Below are positions 386-7,046 of a stretch of DNA of 25,581 bases, in pieces. Source of the stretch: a virus. Numbering within the stretch: position 1 is the first letter of the stretch; each line of letters opens with the position of its first letter. The stretch lies in the UHGV virus genome UHGV-0343683. One strand, given 5' to 3'. The translations under genes were made by a program, and so were the position numbers. The notes under the pieces were generated by a model that saw only the letters and a program-made list of their open reading frames with translations, was not told where the DNA came from and searched no databases.

Positions 386-874
386 TTACCCCAACCTCAA
401 GTTCTTTAAACGATAAGTCATCGCATCGTCAGATACGCCAAAATAATGCGCCATTATATAACTTGGTTGACCGTCAGCGTGCAGTTTTCTGACCTCATCT
501 ACCGGCATCAGAAGTTCTGCTGCGAACTTGTTTGCAAAAATTTCATCAGGATGCGTTCCGGCGCTTGCGGTTTCGCCACGTAAATCAACGTACTCATATT
601 CATCGCTATGCGATGCTTGCCGGGCGATGTAATGCCCCAACTCATGCCCACATGAAAAACGTTGACGAACTTTGTTGTCATCACTGTTTAGAAAGATCGC
701 TGGATCTTGATCTTTTTGTTTAATCAGTGCGCCAGAAACTTTCCCAGGAAGATCGGTAATAAAAACATCTAATCCCATGTCGTGAGCAATTTTCGCTGGA
801 TCAACAGGGAAACCACGCCCGCACCAGAACGTGTCCAGCACTCGCCGGGCGTGCTCTCTTGGGTTGGTAGCCAT
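386..874 (-). CDS. ImmA/IrrE family (COG2856-like) zinc metallopeptidase
   Basis: 162 aa with HEXXH motif (CGHELGHY) in the characteristic RQRF-x-x-x-HELGH context; GGAGG Shine-Dalgarno upstream of ATG at 874. No XRE/HTH partner immediately upstream (about 400 bp non-coding). Confidence 0.8.
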   Translation of the reverse strand: MATNPREHARRVLDTFWCGRGFPVDPAKIAHDMGLDVFITDLPGKVSGALIKQKDQDPAIFLNSDDNKVRQRFSCGHELGHYIARQASHSDEYEYVDLRGETASAGTHPDEIFANKFAAELLMPVDEVRKLHADGQPSYIMAHYFGVSDDAMTYRLKNLRLG

Positions 875-5125: not shown

Positions 5126-5604
5126 TGACGGATCCTAAATGGCTAATCGAGGCTCGAAAAAACCTCGGCATTCGGGAAATGAAAGGGAAGCAACATGCTG
5201 CAGAAATTGTGCAGTACTGGAAAGATATCAAACGCGGCGGCATTAAGGATGACGAAACACCGTGGTGCGCTGCTTTCACCGGGGCAATGCTGGAACGTGC
5301 GGGTATTCGCTCAACGCGTTTTGAGTCTGCGAATTCTTATCTCGATTGGGGTAATGAACTGAAGGAACCCGCCTATGGATGCATTGCTATTCTGTCTCGG
5401 TCTGGCGGTGGTCACGTCGGCTTTGTTGTCGGGAAAAATGCCGCCGGGGATTTAATGATTTTGGGGGGCAACCAGGCAGATGAAGTAAATATCAAAGCTT
5501 TTCCTCGTTCCCGCGTAACAGGCTACCGCTGGCCAGCAGGTCAAACGGATGTTCCACAATCACTTCCATTGGTGAATGCTGAGAAATCTATCTCAGAAGC
5601 GTAG
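5125..5604 (+). CDS. putative endolysin, CHAP/NlpC-P60-like peptidase (TIGR02594-like)
   Basis: 159 aa; candidate catalytic Cys (TPWCAAF) and His (GGGHVGFVVG); coupled start (TAATG) after the membrane proteins. Confidence 0.6.
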   Translation: MTDPKWLIEARKNLGIREMKGKQHAAEIVQYWKDIKRGGIKDDETPWCAAFTGAMLERAGIRSTRFESANSYLDWGNELKEPAYGCIAILSRSGGGHVGFVVGKNAAGDLMILGGNQADEVNIKAFPRSRVTGYRWPAGQTDVPQSLPLVNAEKSISEA

Positions 5605-5611
5605 GTAAAAC

Positions 5612-5806
5612 GTGAAAAAACTTCTCTTAGCTGTCGCGTTCTTCACGCTGGCAGGCTGCACACATTCGACATACACCGAAGCGACTCGCGCTGACGGCAG
5701 CAGTATTAAACACGTGATGATCGCGCCGGGTACGAAGATTACTACTGCGAACGGTGGTTGTATTGATTCAACCGGGGCAGAGGCTTCATGCCTTGGTGGA
5801 AAATAG
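5612..5806 (+). CDS. small lipoprotein (possible lysis accessory or moron)
   Basis: GTG start with AGGT Shine-Dalgarno; signal peptide with lipobox LAGC (MKKLLLAVAFFTLAGC); 64 aa, not proline-rich, no C-terminal TM segment. Confidence 0.5.
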   Translation: MKKLLLAVAFFTLAGCTHSTYTEATRADGSSIKHVMIAPGTKITTANGGCIDSTGAEASCLGGK

Positions 5807-5827
5807 GGTAATTTACTTTAACGAGAG

Positions 5828-5851
5828 GCCGCCTTTTTGTTTTAAGGCGGC
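5828..5851. terminator. hairpin between convergent genes (gccgcctt-tttgtttt-aaggcggc)
   Basis: 8-bp stem with T-rich loop between the lipoprotein gene (+) and the 86-aa gene (-); flanking U-tracts weak. Confidence 0.35.
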
Positions 5852-5865
5852 ACACATTCAACAGA

Positions 5866-6126
5866 TTAAGGTAACTGATTTGACCATTTTGTTGCGCGCC
5901 AGTTGTTCTGAACCATAATCTTCTGAAGTATCTCATCTGAAGGCTCTGCTTCGCCGCTTAGCCATTCTCTTAAAGTTGAACAATTTAGATAAGAGGAGTT
6001 CGCACGATAAAAAGATACGATGGCGTCCTCTGATAACTTCTCAGGAAACTTTTTTGGGTCAGCTTCTTTTAATATTACGCTCATTAAGGCTTCAATTTTT
6101 TCTCTGTTCATTTTTTGCGTTCTCAT
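5866..6126 (-). CDS. hypothetical protein, AT-rich reverse-strand moron
   Basis: 86 aa ORF (start may instead be the ATG at 6111), opposite in orientation to all flanking late genes, visibly more AT-rich than its neighbours; sits where lambdoid phages carry morons (lambda bor position). No Shine-Dalgarno found. Confidence 0.45.
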   Translation of the reverse strand: MRTQKMNREKIEALMSVILKEADPKKFPEKLSEDAIVSFYRANSSYLNCSTLREWLSGEAEPSDEILQKIMVQNNWRATKWSNQLP

Positions 6127-6354
6127 GGTTGTTGTTTTTCTGTAATGATATCAATAAGTTCAAGATATATACATATATGGAAAACTTGTTCGGTAGTCTA
6201 TCGATACAGCACAAAAGGATGGCTCGCTGCCAAAGTGAAAGCTTACGCTGATAATCAGATACACAAAGCTGATGTATGCAAACAAGTACGCCGCGAGGCT
6301 ACAGTTGAGTTTGATGAACCTGATGCGAGCCCCTAATTCCTGTCCTGAAAGGGA

Positions 6355-6479
6355 GATAGCCCCCTGGTCGCGGGTCCTTTCCGAAATCCAAAACACCGAG
6401 GGTCGGTAGACGCGCAAAAACTCGCTCGTTTTTAGTATTTTTTCATTTTGGGTATTTCCGGTTCCGGTGAGGATTTTTA
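6355..6479 (+). other. putative cos region (cosN-like and cosB-like sites)
   Basis: gtcgcgggtcc at 6367-6377 resembles the lambda cosN-proximal CTCGCGGGTTTTCGC as remembered; tttccgg motifs downstream resemble Nu1-binding R sites; lies directly upstream of the small terminase gene. Confidence 0.3.
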
Positions 6480-7046
6480 ATGGCAAGTCAGGCTGAGGTT
6501 GCAGCACATTTACTGCTATCTGATCGTCGTCTGCGCGATCTCGCAAAACTTCCGGGAGCACCAGTCCCACAAGGACGTGGTGATTGGGAGCTAGACGCAT
6601 GGCGCCATTTTTATATTCGTTATCTCCGGAGCAATAGACGCGACACAACTAGTAATGACGAACCGGAAGCGGGGGACAATTCTCCCGAAAAAAATCGCGA
6701 GCAGTGGCTGAAAAATGAGGAACGACAGGAGCGAATCCTGATGGCACGAGTAAAACGCCGCATTCTCGCTAAACGCTACGCGCCAATTGAATTAATTAGC
6801 GTCGCTGTATCTCGCGTCGCCGTTGAATTACGTACCCGCGTCGAGTCGTGGCCACCACGCCTGAAAAAGGTCTGGCCGGAGATGCCGCAAGAGGCGAGCA
6901 GTGTATTACGAGAGGAGCTGGCGATAGCCTTAAATGAGTTGTCAGACATACGAATCGACTTCAGCGATTACGATGTCAGCGATATCGAACGCGATCTCGA
7001 CAGGGTTGAATCCCTTGCGCGTGACGATACCGATGACGGGTGTTGA
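6480..7046 (+). CDS. terminase small subunit (lambda Nu1-like)
   Basis: 188 aa; N-terminal region resembles the lambda Nu1 winged-HTH region; immediately upstream of and overlapping the large terminase gene. Confidence 0.65.
   Translation: MASQAEVAAHLLLSDRRLRDLAKLPGAPVPQGRGDWELDAWRHFYIRYLRSNRRDTTSNDEPEAGDNSPEKNREQWLKNEERQERILMARVKRRILAKRYAPIELISVAVSRVAVELRTRVESWPPRLKKVWPEMPQEASSVLREELAIALNELSDIRIDFSDYDVSDIERDLDRVESLARDDTDDGC

What the first reader, a model, noticed from the sequence alone, without database searches (positions are those of the whole stretch)
5866..6126. AT-rich reverse-strand moron between the lysis cassette and cos
An 86-aa ORF on the minus strand, visibly more AT-rich than its surroundings, sits between the lysis genes and the putative cos site. 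This is the slot lambda uses for bor, but the protein has no signal peptide and no family I can assign (MNREKIEALMSVILKEADPKKFPEKLSEDAIVSFYRANSSYLNCSTLREWLSGEAEPSDEILQKIMVQNNWRATKWSNQLP). The opposing orientation and foreign composition are typical of lysogenic-conversion or defence morons.
Basis: partly seen in the sequence, partly recalled or inferred. Interest (0 to 1): 0.4.

Follow-up and report, generated by a model that had tools for sequence, protein, structure and literature searches.

The report
Small XRE-like moron gene beside cos
A real, conserved 81-codon accessory gene sits backwards at the end of the late operon of an E. coli ST131 prophage; it encodes a small soluble protein that loosely resembles a phage repressor DNA-binding domain, and its function is unknown.

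Summary
The ORF is real and its description is accurate. It lies on the minus strand, has 38.6% GC against about 50-53% in the flanks, and sits between the lysis genes and a cos site I place at about 6400. The true start is the second ATG, giving 5866..6111 and 81 aa rather than 86.

It is under purifying selection (dN/dS 0.05-0.27) and matches PHROG 5191 (function unknown) over its full length. The family is rare: Escherichia, one Citrobacter and a few metagenome contigs. In every prophage where the packaging genes are still present, it is antisense to the late operon and is the gene nearest the packaging module. This holds across three unrelated terminase types, and the gene is exchanged independently of its flanks. 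That is moron behaviour.

An AlphaFold model (pLDDT 87) is a four-helix bundle. Its structural neighbours are almost all XRE/Cro-type HTH domains, but no match is significant and Pfam HTH_3 is below cutoff.

There are no hits to defence models, no signal peptide and no partner gene. My best reading is a separately transcribed moron encoding a non-canonical XRE-like regulator made while late transcription is silent. The function is untested. This is an ordinary kind of element and of modest interest.

The parts
5866..6111 (-). Coding sequence of the 81-aa protein (MNREKIEAL...SNQLP) including the stop codon. This is the conserved form of the gene.
   Evidence: ORF. Homologues all start at this ATG. 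dN/dS 0.05-0.27. PHROG 5191, E = 9.5e-62. AF2 pLDDT 86.9.
6112..6126 (-). Five extra in-frame codons (MRTQK) of the mechanical 86-aa ORF. These are most likely 5' UTR, not coding.
   Evidence: The first ATG is out of frame in L010, L002 and L012, is absent from distant homologues, and has no SD in front of it.
6121..6124 (-). Shine-Dalgarno-like GAGA, 9 nt upstream of the ATG at 6111.
   Evidence: Read from the sequence. GGAG occurs at the same spacing in L017 and L019.
6145..6153 (-). Candidate extended -10 promoter element TGATATCAT (TG-n-TATCAT) with a poor -35 (TGTATA). It would place the transcription start near 6138. Inferred only.
   Evidence: Own scan. TG-n-TAT..T is retained at -39 to -41 in all E. 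coli-lineage variants. The tool's consensus scan found no minus-strand promoter.
6112..6260 (.). AT-rich (35.6% GC) non-coding stretch upstream of the gene. It belongs to the same low-GC block.
5828..5851 (.). GC-rich hairpin (GCCGCCTT, 8-nt loop, AAGGCGGC) between the convergent lipoprotein gene and this gene. It has no U-tract on either strand. It may be the moron's terminator or an RNA-stabilising stem.
   Evidence: -16.7 and -16.1 kcal/mol, z = -3.7 and -4.1. It stays attached to the gene's 3' end in variants where the downstream neighbour differs.
6400..6411 (+). Candidate cosN (GGGTCGGTAGAC). It makes this gene the last gene at the right end of the virion DNA, reading inward. Context, not part of the gene.
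   Evidence: Records of Aeromonas phages with a homologous terS region begin or end exactly here.
6480..7046 (+). Nu1-like small terminase gene, divergent from the gene in question. Context.
   Evidence: phrog_57, E = 3e-39, over residues 1-185.
5612..5806 (+). 64-aa lipoprotein gene, the last gene of the lysis cluster and convergent with the gene in question. Context.
   Evidence: Lipobox LAGC. Only weak lipoprotein or spanin hits.

Best explanation
The feature is a moron: a small, horizontally mobile accessory cassette. It consists of an AT-rich leader with a probable weak extended -10 promoter, an 81-codon gene and a GC hairpin. It is inserted antisense at the very end of the late-operon accessory slot, next to the packaging module.

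The product is a soluble cytoplasmic four-helix protein derived from, or convergent on, the XRE/Cro-C1 helix-turn-helix fold. It departs from that fold in three ways: a long H1-H2 loop, a 6-residue rather than 3-4-residue H2-H3 linker, and a conserved Trp/Arg tail in place of helix 5.

Because the gene opposes Q-antiterminated late transcription, it can only be expressed efficiently while the late operon is silent. That most likely means in the lysogen. There it most likely acts as a small sequence-specific DNA-binding regulator of host, own-prophage or incoming-phage genes, which benefits the lysogen.

Shown: the gene is real, selected and mobile, and the slot, orientation, composition and fold class hold. 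Inferred: the promoter, the timing of expression, DNA binding and the target.
For: **Real and selected.** dN/dS is 0.05-0.27. Ten diverged sequences align over their full length with 16 invariant positions.

**Mobile and dispensable.**
- The gene is at 33-41% GC in every context, against 45-56% in the flanks.
- It is absent from L025, which has the same Q and lysis module but a P27-type packaging module.
- Between L017 and L021 the protein is 81.5% identical while flanking proteins are 13-56% identical. Between L019 and L020 it is 82.7% identical (dS 1.8) while backbone proteins are 94-98% identical.
- Insertions and deletions occur only on its 3' side. The distance to terS is fixed at 369 nt in the E. 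coli lineage.

**Same slot and orientation in every intact context.** These are lambda Nu1-type, Terminase_2 and HNH plus Terminase_4 packaging modules.

**Retained in decayed prophages.** It is intact in two apparently decayed prophages, L021 and L036. This fits a benefit to the host.

**Fold.** The AF2 model has pLDDT 86.9 and pTM 0.77. The top 50 Foldseek hits in both PDB and BFVD are almost exclusively XRE-type HTH domains: CI and C2 repressors, C-proteins, HigA and HipB. Pfam HTH_3 scores E = 0.014. The motif W-L-x-G-x-x-E-P-S-D-E-x-L aligns with QWERSETEPNGENL of P22 C2.

**Stand-alone and cytoplasmic.** There is no signal peptide or membrane segment, and no co-oriented partner gene in the window. 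The hairpin is stable.
Against: - No XRE match is significant: Foldseek E is at least 0.18 with TM 0.4-0.58, the hhalign P-value is 0.015 over 30 columns, and HTH_3 scores 15.8 bits against a cutoff of 23.
- The H2-H3 linker is longer than in a canonical HTH, and P0010 has a further 4-residue insertion there.
- Net charge is not conserved; pI ranges from 5.1 to 9.1.
- No conserved operator-like palindrome lies upstream. The TGATATCA palindrome is lost in close variants.
- The promoter is only a candidate and is not shared with the other lineages.
- I found no expression data.
Confidence: 0.5

Rival explanations
1. Immediate-early 'first-in' gene. In the cos phage the gene is the last gene at the right DNA end, about 290 bp inside cosN, with its promoter nearest the end and reading inward. 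By established lambda biology the right end is packaged last and injected first. The gene would therefore be transcribed by host RNA polymerase as soon as DNA enters. Its product would neutralise a host defence or regulator by protein binding, as an anti-defence or takeover factor.
For: - Position and orientation relative to cos.
- The gene is always the one nearest the packaging start in cos, HNH-cos and pac phages.
- Slot neighbours in other phages include known anti-defence sponges: an Acb2/Tad1 hairpin in L019 and Sequestin PF21825 in L017 (Sequestin function from bioRxiv 10.1101/2025.07.12.664507). L002 carries a weak Lar-like ORF.
- The protein is small, its charge varies and its HTH is non-canonical.
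Against: - Those anti-defence neighbours lie in the late-operon orientation, not antisense.
- The gene stays intact in decayed prophages, which argues for a function in the lysogen.
- In headful phages the injected end is permuted.
- There is no similarity to any known anti-defence protein and no expression data.
Confidence: 0.15
2. Defence or superinfection-exclusion moron that acts through protein-protein contacts rather than DNA binding. The XRE-like scaffold made in the lysogen would bind a component of incoming phages or satellites, such as a repressor, antirepressor, small terminase or HNH protein, and block their development.
For: - Moron features as above.
- The near-cos or near-packaging slot is a known home of prophage defence genes. 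This is established knowledge for P2 old and for lambda bor at the same slot. P2-like hotspots are described in bioRxiv 10.1101/2021.01.21.427644, which was listed but not read.
- Subfamilies of the protein track packaging-module type in the small sample.
- Alleles are swapped between otherwise near-identical phages (L019 against L020). This is typical of arms-race loci.
Against: - No PADLOC hit.
- dN/dS is low rather than diversifying.
- The sample of contexts is small, and no partner has been identified.
Confidence: 0.15
3. Accessory factor of DNA packaging or cos recognition, or a regulator of the packaging genes, needed by the phage itself.
For: In all intact contexts the gene is divergent from, and next to, the first packaging gene. 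The intergenic distance is 55-137 nt in pac and HNH phages and 369 nt, including cos, here.
Against: - The gene is present in only 1 of 50,697 phage records.
- It is absent from L025.
- The three terminase types it accompanies are unrelated.
- Its antisense orientation prevents co-expression with late genes.
Confidence: 0.05
4. XRE-type antitoxin or controller protein of a two-gene module.
For: Structural neighbours include HigA, HipB and the C-proteins of restriction-modification systems.
Against: The gene is monocistronic. A hairpin follows the stop codon directly, and no co-oriented ORF is conserved across contexts.
Confidence: 0.03
5. Chance ORF or non-coding spacer.
For: The first-stage reader raised this as the outcome that would refute its interpretation. 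The ORF is short and lies in an AT-rich intergenic-looking stretch. Nothing else here supports it.
Against: The probability of being stop-free is 0.004. Selection is purifying and homologues reach down to 36% identity over the full length. The fold is confident. There is no Rfam match.
Confidence: 0.01

Closest known systems
Lambda bor (and morons in general, as defined for HK97/HK022 by Juhala and Hendrix)
   Same: It occupies the same slot, after the lysis genes and before cos, and has the same antisense orientation to the late operon. Its composition differs from the flanks. It is dispensable and patchily distributed.
   Different: Bor is an outer-membrane lipoprotein. This protein has no signal peptide or lipobox and gives no Bor family hit. 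Expression in the lysogen is documented for bor but untested here.
XRE/Cro-C1 HTH domains (Pfam HTH_3, PF01381), for example the N-terminal domain of P22 C2, 434 Cro, restriction-modification C-proteins and HigA/HipB antitoxins
   Same: Size is about 70-80 aa. The protein is an all-helical bundle with the same helix order. The helix 3, loop, helix 4 motif G-x3-P-S-x3-L matches, and the best local alignment is to P22 C2.
   Different: All matches are sub-threshold. The H1-H2 loop is 13 residues and the H2-H3 linker is 6-10 residues. Helix 5 is replaced by a conserved W-R-x3-W-S tail. Charge is not conserved.
PHROG 5191 (function unknown)
   Same: Full-length match over 1-86 of 86 positions, E = 9.5e-62. 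This is its family.
   Different: The PHROG profile uses the 86-aa start. The conserved protein has 81 aa.
HK97 gp15 and P2 old/tin type prophage exclusion morons
   Same: These are single small accessory genes carried in a late-region or cos-proximal slot of a temperate phage. This comparison rests on established knowledge and is an analogy only.
   Different: There is no sequence or fold relationship. gp15 is a membrane protein, whereas this protein is soluble. No exclusion phenotype has been tested.

Membership tests
Moron (autonomous accessory gene in a phage late region) | Present in some but not all otherwise related phages, inserted between conserved modules | tested here: met
   Absent from L025, which has the same lysis module. 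Present in three unrelated backbones. Identity is decoupled from the flanks.
Moron (autonomous accessory gene in a phage late region) | Nucleotide composition distinct from neighbouring genes | tested here: met
   GC 0.33-0.41 against 0.45-0.56 in all seven contexts.
Moron (autonomous accessory gene in a phage late region) | Own promoter and terminator | tested here: inconclusive
   A stable hairpin follows the stop codon but has no U-tract. Only a candidate extended -10 element was found, and it is conserved only within the E. coli lineage.
Moron (autonomous accessory gene in a phage late region) | Expressed from the repressed prophage | not testable with these tools
   No transcript data were found for this gene.
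XRE/Cro-C1 HTH (Pfam HTH_3, PF01381) | Sequence match at or above the Pfam gathering score | tested here: not met
   15.8 bits against a cutoff of 23, E = 0.014. Only 3 of 10 family members match at all.
XRE/Cro-C1 HTH (Pfam HTH_3, PF01381) | Five-helix lambda-repressor-like fold with a canonical helix-turn-helix | tested here: inconclusive
   Foldseek neighbours are nearly all XRE domains, but E is at least 0.18 and TM is 0.4-0.58. The model has four helices and a long H2-H3 linker. The hhalign P-value is 0.015 over 30 columns.
XRE/Cro-C1 HTH (Pfam HTH_3, PF01381) | Sequence-specific DNA binding | not testable with these tools
   No conserved operator-like repeat lies upstream.
Lambda Bor lipoprotein | Signal peptide with lipobox; Bor family match | tested here: not met
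   No hydrophobic N-terminus. No Bor hit in Pfam or PHROGs.
PHROG 5191 | Full-length profile match | tested here: met
   E = 9.5e-62 over 1-86 of 86 positions.
Known anti-phage defence systems (PADLOC-DB 2.0) | Match to any defence protein model | tested here: not met
   0 families at E up to 0.1.
Type II toxin-antitoxin (XRE antitoxin) | Co-transcribed toxin gene next to it | tested here: not met
   The gene is monocistronic and a hairpin follows the stop codon. No conserved same-strand neighbour exists.

The most novel reading that the evidence does not exclude
The gene is positioned to be the first gene transcribed after injection. It is always the gene nearest the packaging start, and so lies at the last-packaged, first-injected DNA end. 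It always reads inward from that end, in cos, HNH-cos and pac phages alike. Its XRE-like product would be a new immediate-early anti-defence or host-takeover factor of temperate enterobacterial phages. That would explain the positional rule better than chance moron insertion does.
Probability: 0.12. Interest if true: 0.6.

Novelty: new member of a known kind. Interest (0 to 1): 0.27.

Why it matters
The gene belongs to the highly conserved prophage that marks the pandemic E. coli ST131 clone. By gene order this prophage is 's2-ST131' of Tantoso et al. 2022 (PMC9205054). The locus (the 901-bp stretch 5600-6500 that contains the gene) is present in 444 of 5,426 complete E. coli genomes. Any lysogen phenotype, such as phage resistance or regulation of host genes, would therefore be epidemiologically widespread. 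More generally, the gene is a clean example of an antisense accessory gene tied to the boundary between the lysis and packaging modules across unrelated terminase systems. As it stands it is one more conserved hypothetical moron, and there is no evidence for an unusual mechanism.

Tried and rejected
**Searches that found nothing above threshold**
- Pfam, NCBIfam and PADLOC gave nothing above threshold.
- PDB sequence searches with the single protein and with the family profile gave only noise: Cadmus, TIP60 and PDCD5 at E of 0.24 or more.
- The exhaustive HMMER search of 1.84 billion representatives gave four genuine diverged relatives (36-53% identity), two fragments of the close Escherichia form, and three repeat-protein artefacts (P0011-13), which I discarded after reading them.
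- Rfam found no RNA family in 5500-6700.

**Family breadth**
- The phage collection holds one record carrying the gene, whichever family member is used as the query.
- The GTDB species representatives gave only E. whittamii. The first attempt with alignment A1 failed for lack of a conserved stretch.
- The metagenome scan added no new context.

**Structure and profile tests**
- The single-sequence AF2 model was poor (pLDDT 64), and its fold search was superseded by the model built from the alignment.
- hhalign against a mini-alignment of P22 C2, dh434 and ImmR gave a marginal, partial match.

**Regulatory elements**
- The palindrome TGATATCA upstream was considered as an operator. I rejected it because close variants lose it.
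- The tool's sigma-70 scan found no minus-strand promoter.

**Literature**
- Searches for the accessions, the phage name or the PHROG id gave nothing relevant.
- The LF82 moron transcriptome paper (PMC9928086) could not be linked to this gene.
- The accessions were not in the supplements of the ST131 paper. The gene was identified there by gene order only.

Full report
**Observation**

The window carries a minus-strand ORF at 5866..6126 of 86 aa. Upstream in the late-operon direction lie a Q antiterminator gene, two holin genes, a TIGR02594/CHAP endolysin gene and a 64-aa lipoprotein gene. Downstream lie a Nu1-like small terminase gene (phrog_57), a lambda gpA-like large terminase gene and head genes.

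The ORF has 38.6% GC (GC3 37.8%) and its leader has 35.6%. Its neighbours have 50-54% and the window as a whole 49%. Aeromonas phage records with a homologous terS leader begin exactly at window position about 6401, where the sequence reads GGGTCGGTAGAC. The cos site is therefore about 290 bp from the gene's start codon, and this gene is the terminal gene of the virion DNA's right arm.

**Start codon**

The 81-aa form (5866..6111) is the real one.
- All diverged homologues start at the equivalent Met.
- In variants L010, L002 and L012 the upstream ATG is 16-17 nt away and so out of frame.
- A GAGA motif lies 9 nt before the second ATG, matching GGAG at the same spacing in L017 and L019.
- No SD precedes the first ATG.

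**Is it a gene?**

Yes. At this GC the chance of 81 stop-free codons is 0.004. Nei-Gojobori dN/dS is 0.16-0.27 among most of the Escherichia variant pairs compared, rising to 0.49 and 0.75 in two pairs that differ at only 3 and 8 nt. It is 0.12 for L017 against L021 and 0.05 for L019 against L020, where dS is 1.8.

The protein matches PHROG 5191 (function unknown) end to end at E = 9.5e-62. Every source calls it 'hypothetical protein'.

**Distribution**

The window is 100% identical to Escherichia phage vB_EcoM-705R4. The locus (window 5600-6500) is found in 444 of 5,426 complete E. coli genomes, mostly ST131, and 417 of them are at least 99% identical.

By gene order the prophage is the 's2-ST131' prophage described as ST131-specific by Tantoso et al. 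2022. There the gene corresponds to SY51_RS10655, listed as a hypothetical protein (PMC9205054, supplement).

Outside Escherichia the family is rare.
- It occurs in one of 50,697 phage records.
- It occurs in one of 185,579 species representatives, E. whittamii.
- Among 5.8 billion protein clusters and 1.84 billion representatives there are about ten clusters: Citrobacter freundii, an unnamed enterobacterial assembly and metagenome contigs, at 36-56% identity.

**Context rule**

In every informative context the gene is antisense to the late operon and is the gene closest to the first packaging gene, even though the packaging systems are unrelated.
- Lambda Nu1/gpA type here, with 369 nt to terS and cos in between.
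- Terminase_2/phrog_51 in L017, L021 and L038, with 64-65 nt between.
- HNH plus Terminase_4 (HK97-like) in L019 and L020, with 55-137 nt between.

The lysis side is variable. Other accessory genes sit there:
- an Acb2/Tad1-hairpin protein gene and a DUF1378 gene in L019;
- a Sequestin gene in L017 (an anti-Thoeris sponge; bioRxiv 10.1101/2025.07.12.664507);
- a DUF4145 gene in L038;
- a 1-1.2 kb insert in many Escherichia variants, carrying an ORF with a weak Lar-like hit.

Within the Escherichia lineage the gene-to-terS distance is fixed, and all length variation is 3' of the gene's hairpin.

**Mobility**

L025 has the same Q, holin, endolysin and lipoprotein module (90-100% identity) but a P27-type packaging module, and it lacks the gene.

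L017 and L021 share the gene at 81.5% identity while their flanking proteins are 13-56% identical. Conversely, L019 and L020 have 94-98% identical backbone proteins but only 82.7% identity in this gene, with saturated dS. The gene is therefore exchanged independently of its surroundings.

It is AT-rich in all seven contexts. In two contexts, L021 and L036, the prophage appears decayed: packaging and structural genes are missing and host genes lie close by. The gene is still intact in both. This is weak evidence (n = 2) for a benefit to the host.

**Cassette anatomy**

Directly after the stop codon lies a GC hairpin at 5828-5851 (-16.7 and -16.1 kcal/mol; z = -3.7 and -4.1). It stays with the gene when the downstream neighbour changes. 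It has no U-tract, so it is not a canonical intrinsic terminator.

Upstream, the only promoter candidate is an extended -10 element, TGATATCAT, at 6153-6145 on the minus strand. It is retained as TG-n-TAT..T in all Escherichia variants. It has a poor -35 and no counterpart in the other lineages. The promoter is inferred, not shown. There is no Rfam match in the region.

**The protein**

It has no signal peptide or membrane segment. With a 10-sequence alignment, AlphaFold2 gives pLDDT 86.9 and pTM 0.77. The model has helices at 2-14, 28-37, 44-52 and 59-68, followed by a tail carrying the invariant residues R72, W76 and S77.

Foldseek against PDB and BFVD returns almost only XRE/Cro-C1 HTH domains: an XRE regulator from Mycobacterium smegmatis, EspR, HigA2, BldD, ClgR, TP901-1 CI, P2 C, C.BclI, and viral CI and HTH_XRE proteins. 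None is significant; the best E-values are 0.42 (PDB) and 0.18 (BFVD), with TM 0.4-0.58.

Pfam HTH_3 matches residues 45-65 at E = 0.014, below the gathering score, and only in the three closest members. A profile-profile test against P22 C2, dh434 and ImmR aligns only helix 3, loop, helix 4 (P = 0.015). The motif WLSGEAEPSDEIL parallels QWERSETEPNGENL of P22 C2.

The protein departs from the canonical domain in four ways: a 13-residue H1-H2 loop, a 6-10-residue H2-H3 linker, no helix 5, and a pI that varies from 5.1 to 9.1. I therefore call it XRE-like but do not file it as a member of the family.

**Interpretation**

The moron reading is well supported. How the product works is inferred. An antisense gene inside a Q-antiterminated operon can be expressed well only when that operon is silent. 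The fold class points to DNA or repressor-type interactions.

My best estimate, at about 0.5, is a lysogen-expressed small regulator. The rivals are:
- an immediate-early 'first-in' factor at the first-injected DNA end (0.15);
- a protein-binding exclusion factor (0.15);
- a packaging accessory (0.05);
- an antitoxin (0.03);
- a chance ORF (0.01).

None of the known defence models matches.

**Novelty**

The kind of element, a moron in the bor slot encoding an XRE-like small protein, is familiar. The family is already catalogued as a PHROG of unknown function. What is new here:
- the corrected start codon;
- the fold assignment;
- the strict positional and orientational rule across three terminase systems;
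- evidence of exchange independent of the flanks;
- the link to the ST131-signature prophage.

Interest is modest.

Noticed in passing
window 5612-5806 (+): A 64-aa lipoprotein gene (MKKLLLAVAFFTLAGC...) directly follows the endolysin gene, and no Rz-type i-spanin ORF is visible. It has only noise-level family hits and travels with the lysis module; it is present in L025, which lacks the moron. It could be an orphan o-spanin-like or Bor-like surface lipoprotein.
   Followed up: partly
window 6480-7046 (+) against RefSeq L003 4142-4447: RefSeq/PGAP annotates the small terminase as a 306-nt 'hypothetical protein'. The 188-aa ORF matches phrog_57 terS over residues 1-185, so the RefSeq call is probably truncated at the N-terminus.
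   Followed up: partly
window 6400-6480: A candidate cosN (GGGTCGGTAGAC) and the terS leader are about 78% identical to the left end of Aeromonas phage phiARM81ld and relatives. This is a conserved cos and terS leader shared between Escherichia and Aeromonas phages.
   Followed up: partly
window 386-874 (-): An ImmA/IrrE-type metallopeptidase gene with a strong PADLOC CapP-like match (E = 2.4e-25) lies at the left edge of the window. Its XRE partner was not identified within the window.
   Followed up: no
L002 3170-3738 (also L008, L009, L011-L015, L023): Many Escherichia variants carry a 1-1.2 kb insert between the lipoprotein gene and the moron's hairpin. It holds a 92-aa ORF and an antisense 97-aa ORF. 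The latter has a sub-threshold Lar (restriction alleviation) hit, E = 1.4e-5.
   Followed up: partly
L010 about 6244-6260: One viral contig has an ~85-nt deletion between two GTTGAAT repeats. It removes the hairpin and the 3' end of the lipoprotein gene but leaves the moron ORF intact.
   Followed up: no
L019 6469-6708; L017 7107-7301; L038 1036-1719: In other phages the same slot between lysis and packaging genes holds an Acb2/Tad1-hairpin protein gene, a Sequestin (PF21825) sponge gene and a DUF4145 protein gene. The slot looks like an anti-defence and accessory hotspot in lambdoid enterobacterial phages.
   Followed up: partly
whole window: By gene order the window corresponds to the 's2-ST131' prophage reported as specific to pandemic ST131 and interpreted there as a tailocin-like element (PMC9205054). 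The window clearly also encodes terminase, portal and capsid genes, so it is a complete myovirus-type prophage rather than a tailocin.
   Followed up: partly
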